Shown here in pieces: positions 1-5,937 of a DNA stretch of 6,034 bases. Below the pieces are notes generated by a model, which saw nothing but the letters and a program-made list of their open reading frames with translations, was not told where the DNA came from and ran no database searches. The first letter of the stretch is position 1, and every line of letters begins with the position of its first letter. Source of the stretch: a virus (lineage: Duplodnaviria > Heunggongvirae > Uroviricota > Caudoviricetes); the IMG/VR virus record IMGVR_UViG_2671180429_000014. One strand, 5' to 3'. A program made the position numbers and the translations under genes.

Positions 1-289
1 TCGCAACCGCATCATTCACCGCCTGCTGCAGTACATCCGGATCATAATCACGACCATCACGCGGTACCGGAATGGTCCCCACAGCGTCATCCACCATCGC
101 CTGCAGAACCGGATGTACCTCATCCACCGTCACATGCTTCTGTAATACCGCCGACAGGGAAGCCAGTTTCTCTTCAAACGCTTGTGCCTGCGCGGCCATC
201 TTCCCCTCAAATGTGCGCTGTAAATCCGCCAGCACCGTGGAGAATTCTTCGCCCAGTGCACGAATAATGGACAGTTCCCGTTCCGTCAT
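1..289 (-). CDS. Hypothetical phage protein, N-terminal 96 codons only (continues past window start); function unknown
   Basis: Manual translation of the reverse complement from ATG at 289..287 is open for 96 codons to the window edge (MTERELSIIRALGEEFSTVLADLQRTFEGKMAAQAQAFEEKLASLSAVLQKHVTVDEVHPVLQAMVDDAVGTIPVPRDGRDYDPDVLQQAVNDAVA...). Its ATG overlaps the portal stop as ATGA (plus 286..289 = tcat). Not in the ORF track, presumably because it has no stop inside the window. I do not recognise the sequence. Confidence 0.5.
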   Translation of the reverse strand, partial: MTERELSIIRALGEEFSTVLADLQRTFEGKMAAQAQAFEEKLASLSAVLQKHVTVDEVHPVLQAMVDDAVGTIPVPRDGRDYDPDVLQQAVNDAVA

Positions 290-1503
290 TTTCTCAGTAT
301 CCCCCTGAACATCGCTTTCACTGCATCATGCTCTGTTTCACTGATTGCCTTATTACCGTCAGATGCGCCGTCAGGCAGTTGTGCTGAAACTGTTTTCCCG
401 GCCGACGCGAACGGGTCCTCACGGGCATCACGACGGGACAGCGCCTCCAGACTGTAGTTCTGCTGCTGAAGATACAGTGCATCACCACCGGCAAGGGGCG
501 GCAGGTTCTCACGTTTACGGGCCTCATTGGGCGTGAGAAGCGTATTTTTCACTGATTCACCCAGTGTTTTCATGCGCCGTTCGCTGTCCATTCTCAGCAG
601 CGTGGTGACGTCAAACTCCGTGCTCTCGTTTTCCCCCGTTTCCAGCGCCTCATCCAGTAACAGCTCAATGGACTCAATCAGCGTCTGCAGACACTGGGAA
701 TAATACTGCTGCTCCAGCGCCTCCACGTTGTCACTGGAAGGCGGGTGGCCAACGCCAATCTTGTAGGCCGGGACACGGAACACCGAACAGACAATTTCAG
801 CNNNNNNNNNNNNNNNNNNNNNNNNNNNNNNNNNNNNNNNNNNNNNNCCGCCATTTCTGAAAAAATACGTCGAATTTGCCTGAATATGATGCCCCTGCAT
901 GGCGGCCAGTCCTGCGGCATACACCGGCGGCAGCCCCACAAGCGGATGAAAAAAACAGTTAAAACGGTCGTGGATCACCTCCCGGGCAGGCACCGTCACC
1001 GACTCTGTGATCCCACAGTTCCGGTCCGGCGTGATGCGGTAGAACACGTCGCCGTCATCCGCCACCAGAGGTTCAACCCGGTTCCAGTCCAGAATACGCA
1101 GTTCTTTGATCTGCCCCCGGGGGTTGCGGATTTTCAGCACCACCGTATTGCCGTGACGCAATTTGGAATTCAGCCACAGTTCAAAAAACTGGATGCGATT
1201 CTGCTGCGCATTAGGACGACGACAGAGACGGGCAGTATCTCCCTGCCGCTTTTCCCGGCGTATTCCCTGTACATCAGTCTGCATCAGGCGAAGCCGCATT
1301 TTGGCGATATCCTGGGATATCAGCGAAATGCATGAAAACACCGCGTGAAAGGACAAAACGGTTTCCGGATCGGCTTTCACACCCTGCTGCCAGGCACCGG
1401 CAAAAGGCTCAGCCACCGCCTGAAACAGGGACCGCCAGCCCACTTCTCTTACGTCACGTCCTGATTTCTGGTTTTTTCGGGTTCGCCGCAAAAGGTTCCA
1501 CAT
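286..1503 (-). CDS. Phage portal protein, HK97-like family; reading frame interrupted by a 46-nt N run
   Basis: 405-codon ORF with ATG start at 1503 and an in-frame stop 5 codons upstream, so no longer N-terminus is possible. GGAG sits 8 nt upstream of the ATG. Motifs typical of HK97-type portals: SFHAVFSCISLISQ near the N-terminus, EIVCSVFRVPAYKIG, and C-terminal LTPNEARKRENLPPLAGGD. Recognition is from memory of the family. Confidence 0.85.
   Translation of the reverse strand: MWNLLRRTRKNQKSGRDVREVGWRSLFQAVAEPFAGAWQQGVKADPETVLSFHAVFSCISLISQDIAKMRLRLMQTDVQGIRREKRQGDTARLCRRPNAQQNRIQFFELWLNSKLRHGNTVVLKIRNPRGQIKELRILDWNRVEPLVADDGDVFYRITPDRNCGITESVTVPAREVIHDRFNCFFHPLVGLPPVYAAGLAAMQGHHIQANSTYFFRNGXXXXXXXXXXXXXXXXAEIVCSVFRVPAYKIGVGHPPSSDNVEALEQQYYSQCLQTLIESIELLLDEALETGENESTEFDVTTLLRMDSERRMKTLGESVKNTLLTPNEARKRENLPPLAGGDALYLQQQNYSLEALSRRDAREDPFASAGKTVSAQLPDGASDGNKAISETEHDAVKAMFRGILRK
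802..847. other. Run of 46 N (assembly gap or masked bases) inside the portal gene
   Basis: Directly visible: c at 801, n at 802..847, ccg at 848..850. The X residues in the ORF track come from this run. Confidence 0.99.
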
Positions 1504-1714: not shown

Positions 1715-3652
1715 TCAGCCACCGGACGCAGTTCCGTAGTTCACACCGGTGATCACCGCCACTGCCGCGGTACGGCGACGACGCCAGTTGATCCAGCGCT
1801 CCGCACGGATGGCCACGCTGCCGGTCTGAAACATGGAGACCAGTTCCACCGGTGACGGTGTGCTGCTGTCGCTGGTCGGTTCAGACTGCATCTCCAGTGA
1901 CGCTTCACGGGACATATCCACCGCCACACCGCCGTCATCAGCCAGATAAATATCCGGTGCATTCACCAGTACCAGCTGGTCACCCACATACTGGGAGACA
2001 ATCACCGGCAGCCCCTGGAAGGTCCCGCCCAGCAAGGTCATGTCCGGATATTCCTTCTGACCCAGCGCATTTTTACGCATGGACAGCGCCAGGGCATTGG
2101 TGCTGGACATCAGCCAGACCGCACCGGTGGGCTGCAGATTTGCCGTCACAAACTGGCCAAACGCGGCCTCGGCATCCGCATCCGGGTTACCGGTTGATGC
2201 CGTGCCCTTCACATCATGGGTGATGGACGCCGGGGAGACATCCGCCACCGCCGCTTTTTTCGGGTCCACAAAGTCTGTGTCCAGACGCGCCACCACCGCT
2301 TCCGCCAGCGCATTACGGACCAGTGCATCAGCAGCCGGACTGGAAAAACGGATCAATTCTTCCGTCAGTACCGCAATGGCCGACACTTTCGCATGACTGA
2401 AGGTGATGGATTCAAAATCAAACTTCGTCAGGGGTCTGGCCTTACCCTCACCCACCCAGCCGGCAGCACCACCGGACACCTGGGCATGCACGCGGATATT
2501 GAACGGCACCTGACGAAGTGCAGGGATCCCGCCCTGACCAAATCGCCCGATAATGGTCTGCGGACGCAGGTAATCAATAAAGTCCTGCGCATATTCCTGG
2601 TATTCAGACAGGCTGCCTGCCCACTGCGGGTCCGTGGTGGTCCCTGCCCCCACCGCCGATTTCAGGACATGATGCAGACGGCTGTCATCCGGATACTGAC
2701 GACGGGCCACTTCCAGGGCTTCAGAGCGGACACCTTTAGCCGCGGCCAGTGATTTGGCAAAGCGGGCGAAACCAATCCCCTTCTCCAGTTTCTGCTCAAC
2801 ACGGATCACCGGCGCTGAAGCCACCGTGGCCACATTCCCGTTACCGGCCTGTTTCACCGGCTGTGCCGTGGCGGCCTTACTGGTTTCCAGTTCACGCAGA
2901 CGCTTCAGGTGCGCATCCACCTGACGGATTTCCGCTGCGGTGTTGTCGTAGTGCTCTTCCTCTTCCACATCCAGTGTGCGGCCTTCCTCTGCGGCTTTGT
3001 TCATGATCTCCTCAAGGGAGGCTGCCAGCGCCGCACGCTTGTTTTCAAAACTTTTAATCTGTTCACCAGTATTCATTGCTGACTTTTCCTTATGAAAAGA
3101 GGTTATTGACTGTGCCGAAGCGCCGGCAGAAGATGCGATTTTCACCACCGGTTTCCGGTTGCCGGACGCGGCAGAAAACGGGCGGTCGAAATATTTAATG
3201 GTCCGGATGGTGCATTCCGCATTCGCGGGCACGGTGACGGCAGACACCTCCATCAGCTCCCAGCGCAGAAAATGCAGTCCGCCTCCGTCCAGATAAGTGT
3301 ATTCATGGGGCCGGAAGCCCACAGAAAGCCCCCTGACCAGCCCGGTCTTAATGGCAGCCCAGGCCTCATCCAGCCGGGCTGCCATCTGGGAGGGCATCCC
3401 CGGCTCCGGCTTCACCAGCATTGCCGTGATTTCCAGCCCTTCCCTGACCCGACGCACCGTACACTGGCCTACAGGGCGGGAATGGTCATGCTGCCAGAGA
3501 AACGGGATCGTACTGCCAAACTCCGCCCCCTCCGGCTCCAGGATGTCACCATCCCGATCCGGAGAAGGCGTTGACGCAATCCCGGTGATCACCCGTTCAT
3601 CCTCACTGAAGGATTTCACCGTCAGCAGGGAACAGGCCCGTTTAAGAGTCAC
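1715..3652 (-). CDS. Fusion ORF: HK97-type prohead protease domain (about residues 1-157), Ala/Ser-rich linker, coiled-coil scaffold-like segment, major capsid domain (about residues 260-645)
   Basis: 645-codon ORF starting at GTG (3652..3650) with AGGAGG (3663..3658) 5 nt upstream. The N-terminal region carries the His and Ser motifs I associate with HK97 gp4-type proteases (LWQHDHSRPVG and RGLSVGFRP) and the PANAECT segment. Residues about 193-260 are Glu/Lys/Ala-rich and predicted coiled-coil (EQIKSFENKRAALAASLEEIMNKAAEEG...LKRLRELE), resembling a capsid delta domain. The C-terminal 385 residues are assigned as major capsid by size, position and context; this part is inference (about 0.7). 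Confidence 0.82.
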   Translation of the reverse strand: MTLKRACSLLTVKSFSEDERVITGIASTPSPDRDGDILEPEGAEFGSTIPFLWQHDHSRPVGQCTVRRVREGLEITAMLVKPEPGMPSQMAARLDEAWAAIKTGLVRGLSVGFRPHEYTYLDGGGLHFLRWELMEVSAVTVPANAECTIRTIKYFDRPFSAASGNRKPVVKIASSAGASAQSITSFHKEKSAMNTGEQIKSFENKRAALAASLEEIMNKAAEEGRTLDVEEEEHYDNTAAEIRQVDAHLKRLRELETSKAATAQPVKQAGNGNVATVASAPVIRVEQKLEKGIGFARFAKSLAAAKGVRSEALEVARRQYPDDSRLHHVLKSAVGAGTTTDPQWAGSLSEYQEYAQDFIDYLRPQTIIGRFGQGGIPALRQVPFNIRVHAQVSGGAAGWVGEGKARPLTKFDFESITFSHAKVSAIAVLTEELIRFSSPAADALVRNALAEAVVARLDTDFVDPKKAAVADVSPASITHDVKGTASTGNPDADAEAAFGQFVTANLQPTGAVWLMSSTNALALSMRKNALGQKEYPDMTLLGGTFQGLPVIVSQYVGDQLVLVNAPDIYLADDGGVAVDMSREASLEMQSEPTSDSSTPSPVELVSMFQTGSVAIRAERWINWRRRRTAAVAVITGVNYGTASGG

Positions 3653-3657
3653 ATCAG

Positions 3658-3663
3658 CCTCCT
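3658..3663 (-). promoter_or_regulatory. Shine-Dalgarno AGGAGG for the protease-capsid ORF
   Basis: Minus-sense ...UUUUUUUAUUUUC AGGAGG CUGAU GUG; 5-nt spacer to the GTG start, immediately preceded by a U-rich tract. Confidence 0.6.
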
Positions 3664-3664
3664 G

Positions 3665-3690
3665 AAAATAAAAAAACCGCCGCAGCGGTT
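3665..3690 (-). terminator. Candidate rho-independent terminator (weak) between large terminase and capsid gene, minus orientation only
   Basis: Minus-sense 5'-AACCGC UGCG GCGGUU-3' (plus 3675..3690; 6-bp stem with 4 G-C pairs, 4-nt loop) running into UUUUUUUAUUUU (plus 3665..3676). Lies 25 nt after the terL stop (3718..3716). On the plus strand the hairpin is followed by catgatgg, not a T-tract. Confidence 0.45.
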
Positions 3691-3715
3691 CATGATGGTT
3701 ACAGGGTGAGCAGGG

Positions 3716-5377
3716 TTATATGAAAAAAACCTCATACGCTTTCTTTTTCGGTTCCGGATTCAGGGACATCAGGGACACCGCATTGAAGAGCGCCATCAGC
3801 GGGTCAATTTTTCCCCGTCCGCTGGCCTGTTTGGTGATAAGAATGGCGTTACCTTTAGGCTCCACCCGGGCATTACCGACACACCAGGCCATCAGGGGCT
3901 GATCACCGTGAATCAGCACCCCTTCAGCCAGTTTGCGCTCGGTGGTTTTGATGGCCCCGCCCAGCTTCCAGCCCTGGCTTATCCCCACCACACTCTCATC
4001 GGGGATCCCGGCTTCCGCCAGTGAATCCAGAATCTGCCCCACACCTGACGGGTCAATACCGATATGATCCAGTAACTCAGCCTCATGAATACGACGCACA
4101 TACTCCGCCACTTCCGCCGTGTCATCCCCGACCCGACGGACAATCGTCATGTCTCCACAGGCCACAAAATCCTGAAACCGGGATGCCTCACTCTTCCGTC
4201 TGACCACCGCGGTTTCATGCACCCAGGCATGGCCCCAGCCCAGCCATTCGCGGGTTTCCCTGTCACGGCCAGTCACGTACATTCCCAGCAGATCATCCAG
4301 GCCCCCGCCGTCAATCCCCACCGTCACCACATCAGCGCGCTGCAGGATATCGTCCAGGCTGACGCGCCTGCCCTGCTGCTCCCAGAAATCCGCGCCCGCC
4401 CAGCGGTCAGAACGCAGGGCAAGACCGATTTCCACATTGGCGTGTTTTGACATGAAGCCACGAAATGCTTCCTCACCAGCCTCCCGGGCTTTACGGTACT
4501 CCCGGTACAGAAAGGCCTCATCCACCGAATAACCGAGATTCGGGTTAACCATGGCGAGGTTTTCCATCAGCAGGTGAGCCCCGCTTTCCACCATTTCAGG
4601 AGGATGCTCAAAAATCACCGGCAGAAAGTGCGGATCATGAATTTTGCCGTCACGGACATCCCGGGCATACTGCAGTTTCTGTCTGAACACCCCGGCGGGC
4701 GGTTCATTCGACTGGGTGGTCGTATACACCACAAACCCTTCCGGACGGGAGGCAAGCCCGCCGATGGCTTCACGTAGCATGTCTTCCGCCTTGTACTGCT
4801 TGCCAAACAGCCACAGTTCATCAATCAGTGTCCCCACGGACTTGATACCGGACACCGTATTCGGATCGGCTGCCACCACCTTCAGGGTGGTGTCCGTCAC
4901 CCGATGGGTGATGGTCCGGATATGTGTCTGCACCTGACAGAGGTCATCCAGATCATCGTCCCGTCGTACCATATCCCTGGCAGGGTTGAAGGCGTTAGCC
5001 GCCACCTCCACGGTCGGGGCCAGAATGGTGTAGCCCGCCGCCTGCCGCCAGTTCAGTAACAGCGCCGTCATCATGATCCCCGCAGCCAGCGTGGACTTAC
5101 TGTTTTTCTTGGGGATAAGGATAAACACTTCCTTGATATGGCGAACACCGGTCTGCGCATCGTAGGAGCCAAACAGGGCCGCCACCAGGTCAAACACCCA
5201 CGGTGCACAGGACTCCCCGAATGTCGGGCTACCCGGTGCATCCACAATTCGCAGTTGTTTAAAAATCGCCAGTGCATGTGCAGCCTGGTCCGGATAAATC
5301 GGAGCCGGAATAATCGACAGCCCCTTTTTCAGGCGCTCTGCCCAGTCCGGGCAGGCCGTGCTCCACACAGGTATCAT
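3716..5377 (-). CDS. terL: Terminase large subunit (lambda/HK97-like Terminase_1-type ATPase-nuclease)
   Basis: 553-codon ORF with ATG at 5377 and GAGG 7 nt upstream. Walker A-like ILIPKKNSKSTLAAG near residues 85-100, LKVVAADPNTVSG and DELWLFGK segments, and C-terminal nuclease-region motif GKIDPLMALFNAVSLM, all typical of this terminase family as I recall it. Start overlaps the terS stop as ATGA (plus 5374..5377 = tcat). Confidence 0.9.
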   Translation of the reverse strand: MIPVWSTACPDWAERLKKGLSIIPAPIYPDQAAHALAIFKQLRIVDAPGSPTFGESCAPWVFDLVAALFGSYDAQTGVRHIKEVFILIPKKNSKSTLAAGIMMTALLLNWRQAAGYTILAPTVEVAANAFNPARDMVRRDDDLDDLCQVQTHIRTITHRVTDTTLKVVAADPNTVSGIKSVGTLIDELWLFGKQYKAEDMLREAIGGLASRPEGFVVYTTTQSNEPPAGVFRQKLQYARDVRDGKIHDPHFLPVIFEHPPEMVESGAHLLMENLAMVNPNLGYSVDEAFLYREYRKAREAGEEAFRGFMSKHANVEIGLALRSDRWAGADFWEQQGRRVSLDDILQRADVVTVGIDGGGLDDLLGMYVTGRDRETREWLGWGHAWVHETAVVRRKSEASRFQDFVACGDMTIVRRVGDDTAEVAEYVRRIHEAELLDHIGIDPSGVGQILDSLAEAGIPDESVVGISQGWKLGGAIKTTERKLAEGVLIHGDQPLMAWCVGNARVEPKGNAILITKQASGRGKIDPLMALFNAVSLMSLNPEPKKKAYEVFFI

Positions 5378-5937
5378 CCGTTGCCCTCATTATCATTATT
5401 CACCACCAGGCGGGGTGGTGGTGGCACCGCAAAACGGTTAGCCGCTTTTTTCGCCGCGTCACCTTTTGCCGATTTTTTACCGGCATCCCCTTTTTTATGG
5501 TGCGTGAACTGCGCCAGCTTATAAGCCGCATCCAGCGCCAGCCTGGGGTCGGTATTAATGTTCTCCACCAGAAGACGCCCCATCGCTTTCACCGGATCGG
5601 GAAGACCATCCTCCATATATTCAATACCAGGAGACATCACCGCGGACGGTGGCATCTCCGGATTGTTTTCGTCCGGCTGTGGTATTGCAGCCGCCTCACG
5701 GCGACGGGGTTTATCCTCCTGCTCTGATTTTTTCTGCCGGTAAACAGGAACCTCATCCACCTCCACCGTCTCGCATTGTTTACGGGCTATAAACGCAAGC
5801 ACCTCCGGATCTTTTGCCAGCTGCGAGCCTTTAACCCTGGCGGTCTTCGCCGAATAACCAGCGGCAATGGCTGACGCTGTTTTGTTTTTCCCGGACATGA
5901 GCGCCAGCGCAAATTTTCGTTTTTGCGTTGTCAGCAC
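5374..5937 (-). CDS. terS: Terminase small subunit (Terminase_2/P27-like, N-terminal helix-turn-helix)
   Basis: 187-codon ORF starting at GTG (5937..5935) with GGGAGGAGG immediately upstream and an in-frame TGA 21 codons further up with no ATG between. N-terminus MLTTQKRKFALALMSGKNKTASAIAAGYSAKTARVKGSQL matches the HTH pattern of small terminases of this type. Lys/Ala-rich, low-complexity C-terminus. Sits directly upstream of terL and is translationally coupled to it. Confidence 0.75.
   Translation of the reverse strand: MLTTQKRKFALALMSGKNKTASAIAAGYSAKTARVKGSQLAKDPEVLAFIARKQCETVEVDEVPVYRQKKSEQEDKPRRREAAAIPQPDENNPEMPPSAVMSPGIEYMEDGLPDPVKAMGRLLVENINTDPRLALDAAYKLAQFTHHKKGDAGKKSAKGDAAKKAANRFAVPPPPRLVVNNDNEGNG

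What the first reader, a model, noticed from the sequence alone, without database searches (positions are those of the whole stretch)
3653..3715. Terminator-like hairpin and U-tract between terL and the capsid gene, abutting the capsid Shine-Dalgarno
A 6-bp stem / 4-nt loop followed by U7AU4 sits in the 63-nt spacer, and the U-tract runs straight into AGGAGG-N5-GTG. It could be (a) a partial terminator separating packaging from head transcription, (b) a site read through under phage antitermination, or (c) an A/U-rich translational enhancer for the capsid gene. In any case it marks a regulatory boundary inside what is usually one late operon.
Basis: seen in the sequence. Interest (0 to 1): 0.45.

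Follow-up and report, generated by a model that had tools for sequence, protein, structure and literature searches.

The report
Conserved terminator hairpin before capsid gene
A short RNA hairpin followed by a run of U's sits between the DNA-packaging gene and the capsid gene of a Shiga-toxin prophage of E. coli; it is real and conserved, but it is the ordinary kind of stop signal that lambda-like phages scatter through their late operon and read through with their Q antiterminator.

Summary
On the minus (gene) strand the 63-nt terL-capsid spacer contains GAACCGC-UGCG-GCGGUUU (3691..3674, about -10 kcal/mol), a U-rich tail, then AGGAGG-N5-GTG. It is the only strict terminator-like site on the gene strand of the window; shuffles give 0.09 per 6 kb. 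The window is a lambdoid Stx prophage late operon with a Q-like antiterminator upstream. A hairpin plus U-tract occupies the same spot in eight non-E. coli lineages (terL 54-84% identical) with different stem sequences. Within E. coli, variants change only the loop, the flanks, one A-to-G that keeps pairing, or U-run length. The same hairpin-U-SD-start layout recurs before the major tail and tape-measure genes of this phage, before the head gene of portal-first relatives, and before lambda gene E. The HK97 GenBank record annotates 'putative terminators' at the analogous sites. Best reading: an intrinsic terminator that stops unmodified RNA polymerase and is bypassed by Q-modified polymerase, its U-tract doubling as the capsid leader. 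Attenuation is disfavoured, because capsid protein is needed in far larger amounts than terminase. RNA-stability or translation-enhancer roles remain possible. No 3'-end data were accessible. New member of a known kind; low to moderate interest.

The parts
3716..5377 (-). terL (terminase large subunit) coding sequence; stop codon TAA at 3718..3716, 24 nt upstream of the hairpin
   Evidence: ORF list. Pfam TerL_ATPase and TerL_nuclease. Annotated as terminase large subunit in a 98.9%-identical phage record (window-wide identity; annotation).
3653..3715 (-). 63-nt terL-capsid intergenic spacer
   Evidence: Sequence. Spacer length is 62-64 nt in 54 E. coli prophage copies.
3674..3691 (-). Terminator-type hairpin GAACCGC-UGCG-GCGGUUU (arms 3691..3685 and 3680..3674, loop 3684..3681)
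   Evidence: about -10.2 kcal/mol, pair probabilities 0.86-1.0. Structure is conserved with changed stems in relatives. No stem-breaking variant in 54 E. coli copies.
3664..3676 (-). U-rich tract U7-A-U4-C; its first 2-3 U's are the 3' end of the stem. Expected transcript 3' ends lie around 3670..3665. The tract is also the leader directly 5' of the capsid SD.
   Evidence: Sequence. Predicted about 0.89 unpaired. Only +/-1 U length variation in E. coli copies. A U-tract is present in 7 of 8 non-E. coli lineages that have the hairpin.
3658..3663 (-). Shine-Dalgarno AGGAGG of the capsid gene, 5 nt before the GTG
   Evidence: Sequence. Invariant in E. coli copies. GGAG-type SD at the same place in relatives.
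1715..3652 (-). Prohead protease-major capsid protein fusion gene (645 aa, GTG start at 3652..3650)
   Evidence: ORF list. Pfam Peptidase_S78 and Phage_capsid. The annotated CDS start in NC_049941 matches. Homologues align from residue 1.

Best explanation
The element is a Rho-independent (intrinsic) terminator embedded in the Q-antiterminated late operon of a lambdoid Stx prophage. RNA polymerase without the phage Q modification would form the GAACCGC/GCGGUUU hairpin behind a U-rich RNA-DNA hybrid and release the transcript around 3670..3665, just before the capsid ribosome-binding site. Such polymerases arise from spurious or moron promoters in the lysis-to-terminase region, or from leak-through in a lysogen. 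Polymerase that acquired Q at the late promoter about 14 kb upstream ignores the signal, so in lytic growth terL and the capsid gene are co-transcribed. The element is one of several such checkpoints in this operon (before capsid, major tail and tape-measure genes). Together they keep the structural genes silent unless Q is made. Because the phage genome is compact, the terminator's U-tract runs straight into the capsid SD and so also forms its unstructured, U-rich leader. Shown: the sequence and structure, statistical rarity, structural conservation, recurrence at analogous sites, and the presence of Q upstream. Inferred: actual termination, read-through by Q, and insulation as the selected benefit.
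For: It is a canonical hairpin plus U-tract on the transcribed strand and the only strict hit in the window, against 0.09 per shuffle. An approximate d'Aubenton-Carafa-type score is positive, 16-35, computed with modern energies. The hairpin begins 24 nt after the terL stop, so a terminating ribosome should not mask it. Structure rather than sequence is conserved in eight non-E. coli lineages. The stems are GCCCGC (Enterobacter), GACCCGC (Citrobacter), CCCCGC (Morganella), ACCGC (L065), GCCGC (Phlomobacter), GAACCCGCC (Proteus), AAAGCUCGC (Acinetobacter) and GGCCCCG (Metapseudomonas). On a raw MAFFT alignment 84.5% of cells pair, against 73% for shuffles and 39-55% for slid controls, and 4 of 7 pairs change on both sides. 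E. coli polymorphisms spare the stem. A Q-like antiterminator gene and an unbroken run of same-strand late genes are present in the 98.9%-identical phage. The same layout occurs before the major tail and tape-measure genes. HK97's record annotates putative terminators at the analogous places, with the same hairpin-U-SD-start layout. Published concept: internal terminators combined with processive antitermination suppress spurious transcription (PMC8955417). The phage L genome paper lists stopping non-antiterminated transcription as a possible role (PMC8022706). No sigma-70-like promoter is predicted in the window that could restart transcription (promoters).
Against: No transcript 3'-end, RNA-seq or reporter data were available, so neither termination nor read-through is demonstrated. 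The stem is short (4 G-C pairs, about -10 kcal/mol), so efficiency may be modest. In the Proteus, Morganella and Phlomobacter relatives the hairpin starts 0-5 nt from the terL stop codon, where a terminating ribosome could mask it. Three relatives with the same gene order have 12-24-nt spacers and no hairpin, so the element is dispensable. Its consistent placement 16-24 nt before a start codon, and its association with the head gene whatever lies upstream, would also fit a role in expression of the downstream gene.
Confidence: 0.6

Rival explanations
1. It is a post-transcriptional expression cassette. The hairpin acts in the read-through mRNA as a decay or processing barrier (3' protection of the upstream segment, or 5' protection of a processed capsid mRNA). 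The single-stranded U-tract acts as an S1-binding or standby translational enhancer for the capsid gene. Termination would then be incidental.
For: The hairpin end lies 16-24 nt before the start codon in most instances, with the U-tract abutting the SD. Modules precede the major capsid and major tail genes in several diverged phages. Lambda E also has one 19 nt upstream. In portal-first relatives the element stays with the head gene. In HK97, lambda and several relatives the capsid or tail gene is bracketed by hairpins on both sides. The U-tract is predicted about 0.89 unpaired.
Against: The same modules also precede low-copy genes: tape measure, portal, adaptor, and HK97 I and J. Association with high expression is therefore not specific. 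Mutating or deleting the hairpin in silico does not change predicted SD or start accessibility. An enhancer alone does not require a G+C hairpin followed immediately by U's, which is the terminator signature. This phage has no hairpin after the capsid gene.
Confidence: 0.22
2. It is a partial terminator (attenuator) that works even on Q-modified polymerase. It would set a fixed step-down in transcription between the packaging genes and the head genes.
For: Internal partial terminators are a known way to grade expression within operons. The phage L genome paper lists partial termination as one possible role of intra-late-operon terminators. A series of such sites would give a 5'-to-3' gradient.
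Against: Hundreds of capsid subunits are needed per virion while terminase acts catalytically (general knowledge of HK97-type capsids). A step-down here goes the wrong way. From memory and not re-read here, Sampson et al. 1988 PNAS found that relative expression of lambda late genes is set by translation initiation. Q-modified RNAP is generally terminator-resistant.
Confidence: 0.1
3. The terminator defines the 3' end of a small Hfq-binding RNA derived from the terL 3' end and spacer, with a regulatory role of its own.
For: A G+C hairpin plus a long U-tail is the Hfq-binding 3' module. In lambda the internal terminator tL2a of an antiterminated operon is the 3' end of the Hfq-dependent sRNA LPR1/PreS. 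EHEC prophage late regions encode sRNAs such as StxS and HnrS.
Against: No promoter-like site is predicted upstream in the window. There is no Rfam match. The 25 nt between the stop and the hairpin vary among E. coli copies and are unrelated in other lineages. None of the papers read places an sRNA at this site.
Confidence: 0.04
4. It is a chance hairpin with no function.
For: Loose terminator-like patterns are no more frequent in the window than in shuffles. Three relatives lack it.
Against: It is strictly rare in shuffles. It recurs independently with different stems at the same site in eight lineages and at analogous sites. Polymorphisms spare the stem.
Confidence: 0.03

Closest known systems
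Putative intra-late-operon terminators annotated in phage HK97 (GenBank NC_002167: 3309-3335 before the protease/capsid genes, 6692-6719 before the major tail gene, 8398-8422 before the tape measure gene, and others)
   Same: G+C hairpin, then U-tract, then SD, then start codon within about 12-20 nt. They lie inside a lambdoid late operon, at the same functional junctions (before head, major tail and tape-measure genes) and on the gene strand.
   Different: In HK97 the gene upstream of the head-gene terminator is portal, not terL, and protease and capsid are separate genes. The sequences are unrelated. The HK97 features are also only 'putative'. None of the 60 listed records (of 93 that match) carrying this window's spacer shows a terminator feature under the match.
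Lambda Q / tR' processive antitermination, and the unannotated hairpin before lambda gene E
   Same: Lambdoid late operon read by Q-modified, terminator-resistant RNAP. Lambda has GGCCGC-CUGU-GCGGCU followed by U7, 19 nt before the major capsid gene E.
   Different: [quoted passage not shown] The upstream gene in lambda is D, not terL.
Multi-terminator operons with processive antitermination (pLS20 conAn; P22/L intra-operon terminators)
   Same: Several intrinsic terminators lie inside a long operon. They are bypassed only by polymerase that loaded an antiterminator at the main promoter, and are proposed to kill spurious transcription.
   Different: The antiterminator is different (the conAn RNA-protein pair versus Q) and so are the hosts. 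In phage L the terminator discussed lies after the procapsid module rather than before the capsid gene.
A/U-rich leader enhancers and 5' hairpin leaders of highly expressed phage genes (for example the T7 gene 10 leader; recalled, not tested here)
   Same: A hairpin followed by an A/U-rich single-stranded stretch directly 5' of a strong SD of a major capsid gene.
   Different: The T7 leader is at a true transcript 5' end and is not followed by a terminator-type U-run directly after the stem. Enhancer activity of the present U-tract is untested.
Lambda tL2a / LPR1 (PreS) sRNA
   Same: An internal terminator of an antiterminated phage operon with a G+C hairpin and a poly-U tail.
   Different: LPR1 is a demonstrated Hfq-bound sRNA. 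There is no evidence for any stable RNA ending at the present site.

Membership tests
Intrinsic (Rho-independent) terminator | G+C-rich stem-loop on the transcribed strand | tested here: met
   7-pair stem with 4 G-C pairs and a 4-nt loop, -10.2 kcal/mol; pair probability 0.86-1.0 in context.
Intrinsic (Rho-independent) terminator | U-rich tract of about 7-9 nt immediately 3' of the stem | tested here: met
   U7-A-U4 follows the GC core. That is 8 U in the first 9 nt after the 7-pair stem, or 9 U in the first 10 nt after the 6-pair stem.
Intrinsic (Rho-independent) terminator | Located downstream of a stop codon, far enough not to be masked by the terminating ribosome | tested here: met
   24 nt between the terL TAA and the first stem base. 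In some relatives the distance is only 0-5 nt.
Intrinsic (Rho-independent) terminator | Transcript 3' ends map in the U-tract; termination in vitro without Rho | not testable with these tools
   Term-seq of strain Sakai exists (PMC7547250), but no data file is held.
Intrinsic (Rho-independent) terminator | Structure maintained in evolution (compensatory change) | tested here: met
   Different stems at the same site in 8 lineages. 84.5% of cells pair and 4 pairs change on both sides. Stem-sparing polymorphism within E. coli.
Terminator bypassed by Q-type processive antitermination | Lies in the same-strand transcription unit downstream of a Q gene and late promoter | tested here: met
   Q-like gene at 14720-15061 of NC_049941. 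stx, lysis, HNH, terS, terL and capsid genes all lie on the same strand downstream. This is outside the window, in a phage that is 100% identical over the 601-nt query and 98.9% identical over the window.
Terminator bypassed by Q-type processive antitermination | Read-through depends on Q | not testable with these tools
   Needs reporter or RNA measurements with and without Q.
A/U-rich (S1-dependent) translational enhancer | Single-stranded U/A-rich stretch directly 5' of the SD | tested here: met
   UUUUAUUUUC lies between the stem and AGGAGG and is predicted 0.89 unpaired.
A/U-rich (S1-dependent) translational enhancer | Raises translation of the downstream gene | not testable with these tools
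   Thermodynamic modelling shows no effect of the hairpin on SD or start accessibility. That does not test S1 binding.
Known RNA families (Rfam) | Covariance-model match at or above the gathering score | tested here: not met
   The only hit in the window is a sub-threshold snoRNA model elsewhere.

The most novel reading that the evidence does not exclude
Hairpin-U-tract-SD cassettes may be a conserved, portable expression module of HK97-like and lambdoid late operons, sitting before the head, major tail and tape-measure genes whatever gene lies upstream. On this reading their selected role is post-transcriptional. They would segment the roughly 25-kb late mRNA into differentially stable pieces and supply an S1/standby landing pad that helps set virion protein stoichiometry. 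Alternatively they would yield Hfq-bound 3'-end RNAs, as lambda tL2a does. Transcription termination would be secondary.
Probability: 0.15. Interest if true: 0.5.

Novelty: new member of a known kind. Interest (0 to 1): 0.22.

Why it matters
Roughly a quarter of complete E. coli genomes (1252 of 5426) carry this head module, including Stx1a, Stx2a and Stx2c phages. If the site works as inferred, it is one of the checkpoints that keep costly structural genes silent in lysogens, and possibly keep them from triggering host defence. Late expression would then depend strictly on Q, the same switch that controls Shiga toxin release. The role of intra-late-operon terminators is stated to be unknown in the literature (PMC8022706). 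This site and its two sister sites are conserved, compact and abundant, so they make a convenient test case. In itself the element is an expected feature of such phages.

Tried and rejected
(1) Rfam at a permissive E-value gave nothing at the site.

(2) The sigma-70 promoter scan found no site in the window, so a 'terminator plus restart promoter' reading has no support.

(3) Long-range pairing that encloses the hairpin and sequesters the SD appears in the window's MFE fold (CCUG with CAGG). It is lost in common E. coli variants (CACCCUG becomes CACACUG), so I do not treat it as a feature.

(4) The idea that the hairpin opens the RBS was tested. Partition-function unpaired probabilities of the SD and start barely change when the 5' arm is mutated or the hairpin is deleted.

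(5) A bidirectional terminator is ruled out. On the + strand the hairpin is followed by CATGATGG, with no U-tract.

(6) Identity with published EHEC or EPEC prophage sRNAs (Pas, HnrS, StxS) was checked. The papers place these near Q, the lysis genes or stx, or give no location, and none mentions terminase or capsid junctions.

(7) Term-seq supplementary data for strain Sakai are not held.

(8) The Liu et al. lambda ribosome-profiling paper is not held.

(9) 'Only before highly expressed genes' is rejected as a strict rule, because modules also precede tape-measure, portal and adaptor genes and HK97 I and J.

Full report
WHAT IS THERE. All genes in the window run on the minus strand: terS (5937..5374), terL (5377..3716), a prohead protease-major capsid fusion (3652..1715, GTG start) and portal (1503..286). 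Between the terL stop (TAA, 3718..3716) and the capsid GTG lies a 63-nt spacer. Its 5' part is 24 unremarkable nucleotides. Then comes GAACCGC-UGCG-GCGGUUU (3691..3674), the rest of a U7-A-U4 run, C, AGGAGG (3663..3658), five nucleotides and GTG. The isolated hairpin folds at about -10.2 kcal/mol. It forms with pair probabilities of 0.86-1.0 in a 291-nt mRNA context. An approximate d'Aubenton-Carafa-type score is clearly positive (modern energies, so indicative only).

IS IT MORE THAN CHANCE? With the loose consensus scan the window has as many terminator-like sites as shuffles do (6 against 6.0). Loose matches therefore mean little. With strict criteria (hairpin <= -9 kcal/mol, at least 6 U in the first 8) this is the only site on the gene strand. 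Dinucleotide shuffles give 0.09 per 6 kb, or about 0.001 (my arithmetic) for a hit inside this particular spacer.

CONTEXT. The window is 100% identical over the queried 601 nt to Stx1a- and Stx2a-converting phages (Sawaravirus-like), and close to phages BP-4795, 2851 and YYZ-2008. It is 98.9% identical over the window to Stx2a_WGPS2. The region occurs in 1252 of 5426 complete E. coli genomes, up to seven copies per genome. In the annotated phage the order is Q-like antiterminator, tRNAs, stx, lysis genes, ant, HNH, terS, terL, capsid, portal and tail genes, all on one strand. This is a classical lambdoid late operon. None of the 60 listed records (of 93 matching) shows any annotated feature in the spacer.

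COMPARATIVE EVIDENCE. I fetched 80 viral contigs and 80 species-representative genome loci encoding terL relatives and located the terL stop and the capsid start in each.

Among 54 E. coli-type copies the spacer varies only in six kinds of place: two upstream positions, the base before the stem, two loop positions, the U-run length (+/-1), and one stem position where A becomes G opposite U, which keeps pairing. The SD is invariant.

In relatives with the same gene order (terL 54-84% identical) the spacer is 36-58 nt and unalignable outside the motif. Even so, each carries a G+C hairpin plus U-tract directly 5' of the SD, and each has its own stem:
- Enterobacter: GCCCGC
- Citrobacter: GACCCGC
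- Morganella: CCCCGC
- unnamed contig L065: ACCGC
- Phlomobacter: GCCGC
- Proteus: GAACCCGCC
- Acinetobacter: AAAGCUCGC
- Metapseudomonas: GGCCCCG, with a weak U-tract

Even on an unrefined MAFFT alignment, 84.5% of stem cells pair. Column shuffles give 73% and slid partners give 39-55%. Four of the seven pairs show changes on both sides. Three relatives with 12-24-nt spacers (two Salinisphaera, one MAG) lack the element. Most Burkholderia and Pseudomonas relatives have portal after terL and no terminator after terL. In three of those portal-first relatives (L091, L115, L117) a hairpin-U-SD module sits directly before the protease/capsid gene instead. The element therefore goes with the 5' side of the head gene rather than with terL.

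IT IS ONE OF A SET. In the same phage, outside the window, the same layout appears before the major tail gene: AACCCGC-CGCG-UGCGGGUU, UUUUAUUAUC, AGGAGG, N4, ATG. A third module precedes the tape-measure gene. In relatives, modules precede the major tail gene in five loci, and also tape-measure, portal and adaptor genes (PHROGs assignments). The hairpin end lies 16-24 nt from the start codon in most cases.

The HK97 GenBank record annotates 'putative terminators' at the analogous junctions: before protease/capsid, after capsid, before and after the major tail gene, before tape measure, and before I and J. These sites have the same hairpin-U-SD-start layout. Lambda itself has GGCCGC-CUGU-GCGGCU followed by U7, 19 nt before gene E, and another hairpin just after E. 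Neither is annotated in the lambda record.

MECHANISM. The signature that is conserved is the one that makes E. coli RNAP terminate: a G+C hairpin immediately followed by U's, on the transcribed strand, after a stop codon. A Q-type antiterminator governs this operon. Q-modified polymerase is terminator-resistant (background). The simplest account is that the site stops polymerases that did not load Q and is invisible to those that did.

Multiple internal terminators combined with processive antitermination are an established way to suppress spurious transcription in long operons (PMC8955417). The phage L genome paper names this, together with partial termination, as a possible role of intra-late-operon terminators, while stating that their roles are not known (PMC8022706). 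I put about 0.8 on appreciable termination of unmodified RNAP. I put about 0.9 on Q read-through given that, and about 0.5 on insulation being the selected benefit. The combined statement is scored 0.6.

RIVALS. Attenuation of Q-modified transcription would reduce the gene needed in the largest amount, so I rate it low.

A post-transcriptional role (decay barrier and/or U-rich S1/standby enhancer) is the serious rival. The close, constant spacing to the start codon fits it. So do the association with capsid and tail genes across phages, and the bracketing of capsid or tail genes by hairpins in HK97, lambda and several relatives. Against it, the modules also precede low-copy genes. An enhancer does not need a G+C stem. 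Folding shows no effect of the hairpin on predicted SD or start accessibility.

An sRNA reading has a precedent in lambda tL2a/LPR1, but nothing supports it here: no predicted promoter, no Rfam match, and a variable upstream segment. Chance is excluded by the comparative data.

NOVELTY AND VERDICT. The element is real, under selection, and not annotated in the listed phage records that carry it. It belongs to a kind recognised at least since the HK97 genome annotation. It is a new member of a known kind. What it does beyond 'terminator read through by Q' is as open here as for its relatives, and it could be settled with existing Sakai Term-seq and RNA-seq data plus simple reporters. Interest is low to moderate (0.22).

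Noticed in passing
L001 18570-18588 and 20021-20040 (Stx2a_WGPS2, same phage type, outside the window): Two sister modules share the window's layout. AACCCGC-CGCG-UGCGGGUU, a U-tract and AGGAGG-N4-ATG precede the major tail gene. AAACCUGC-UGUG-GCAGGUUU plus U5 precedes the tape-measure gene; that one also reads as a hairpin with an A/T-rich tail on the opposite strand.
   Followed up: partly
L163 (lambda NC_001416) 6100-6115 and 7163-7180: Lambda has an unannotated hairpin GGCCGC-CUGU-GCGGCU followed by U7, 19 nt upstream of the major capsid gene E. A second hairpin lies directly after E, so E is bracketed by stem-loops.
   Followed up: partly
L084 11662, L145 11669, L083 about 6424 (Proteus, Morganella, Phlomobacter relatives): In these relatives the terminator hairpin begins 0-5 nt after, or overlaps, the terL stop codon. 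A ribosome terminating on terL would cover its 5' arm, so termination there might depend on whether terL is being translated.
   Followed up: no
window about 802-847 (minus-strand portal gene 1503..286): Relative to Stx2a_WGPS2 the portal gene carries a divergent segment that is 147 nt (49 codons) shorter: 405 aa here against 454 aa. The reference record annotates two consecutive 'portal protein' genes.
   Followed up: no
window 3729..3723 (minus strand, last codons of terL): A U7 run (GUU UUU UUC AUA UAA) forms a U UUU UUC slippery-type heptamer four codons before the terL stop. A -1 shift would add only about 8 residues, and no stimulatory structure lies at the usual distance. It is probably insignificant.
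   Followed up: no
window 5421-5445, + strand (antisense to the terS/terL junction): This is the only strict terminator-like hit on the non-coding strand (GUGGCACCGCAAAACGGUUAGCCGC followed by UUUUUUCGC). The stem is imperfect and lies inside coding sequence, so it is likely chance.
   Followed up: no
window 4398-4441, minus strand: A sub-threshold Rfam hit to the archaeal C/D-box snoRNA model sR44 (22.5 bits against a gathering score of 45), inside terL. I regard it as a chance match.
   Followed up: no
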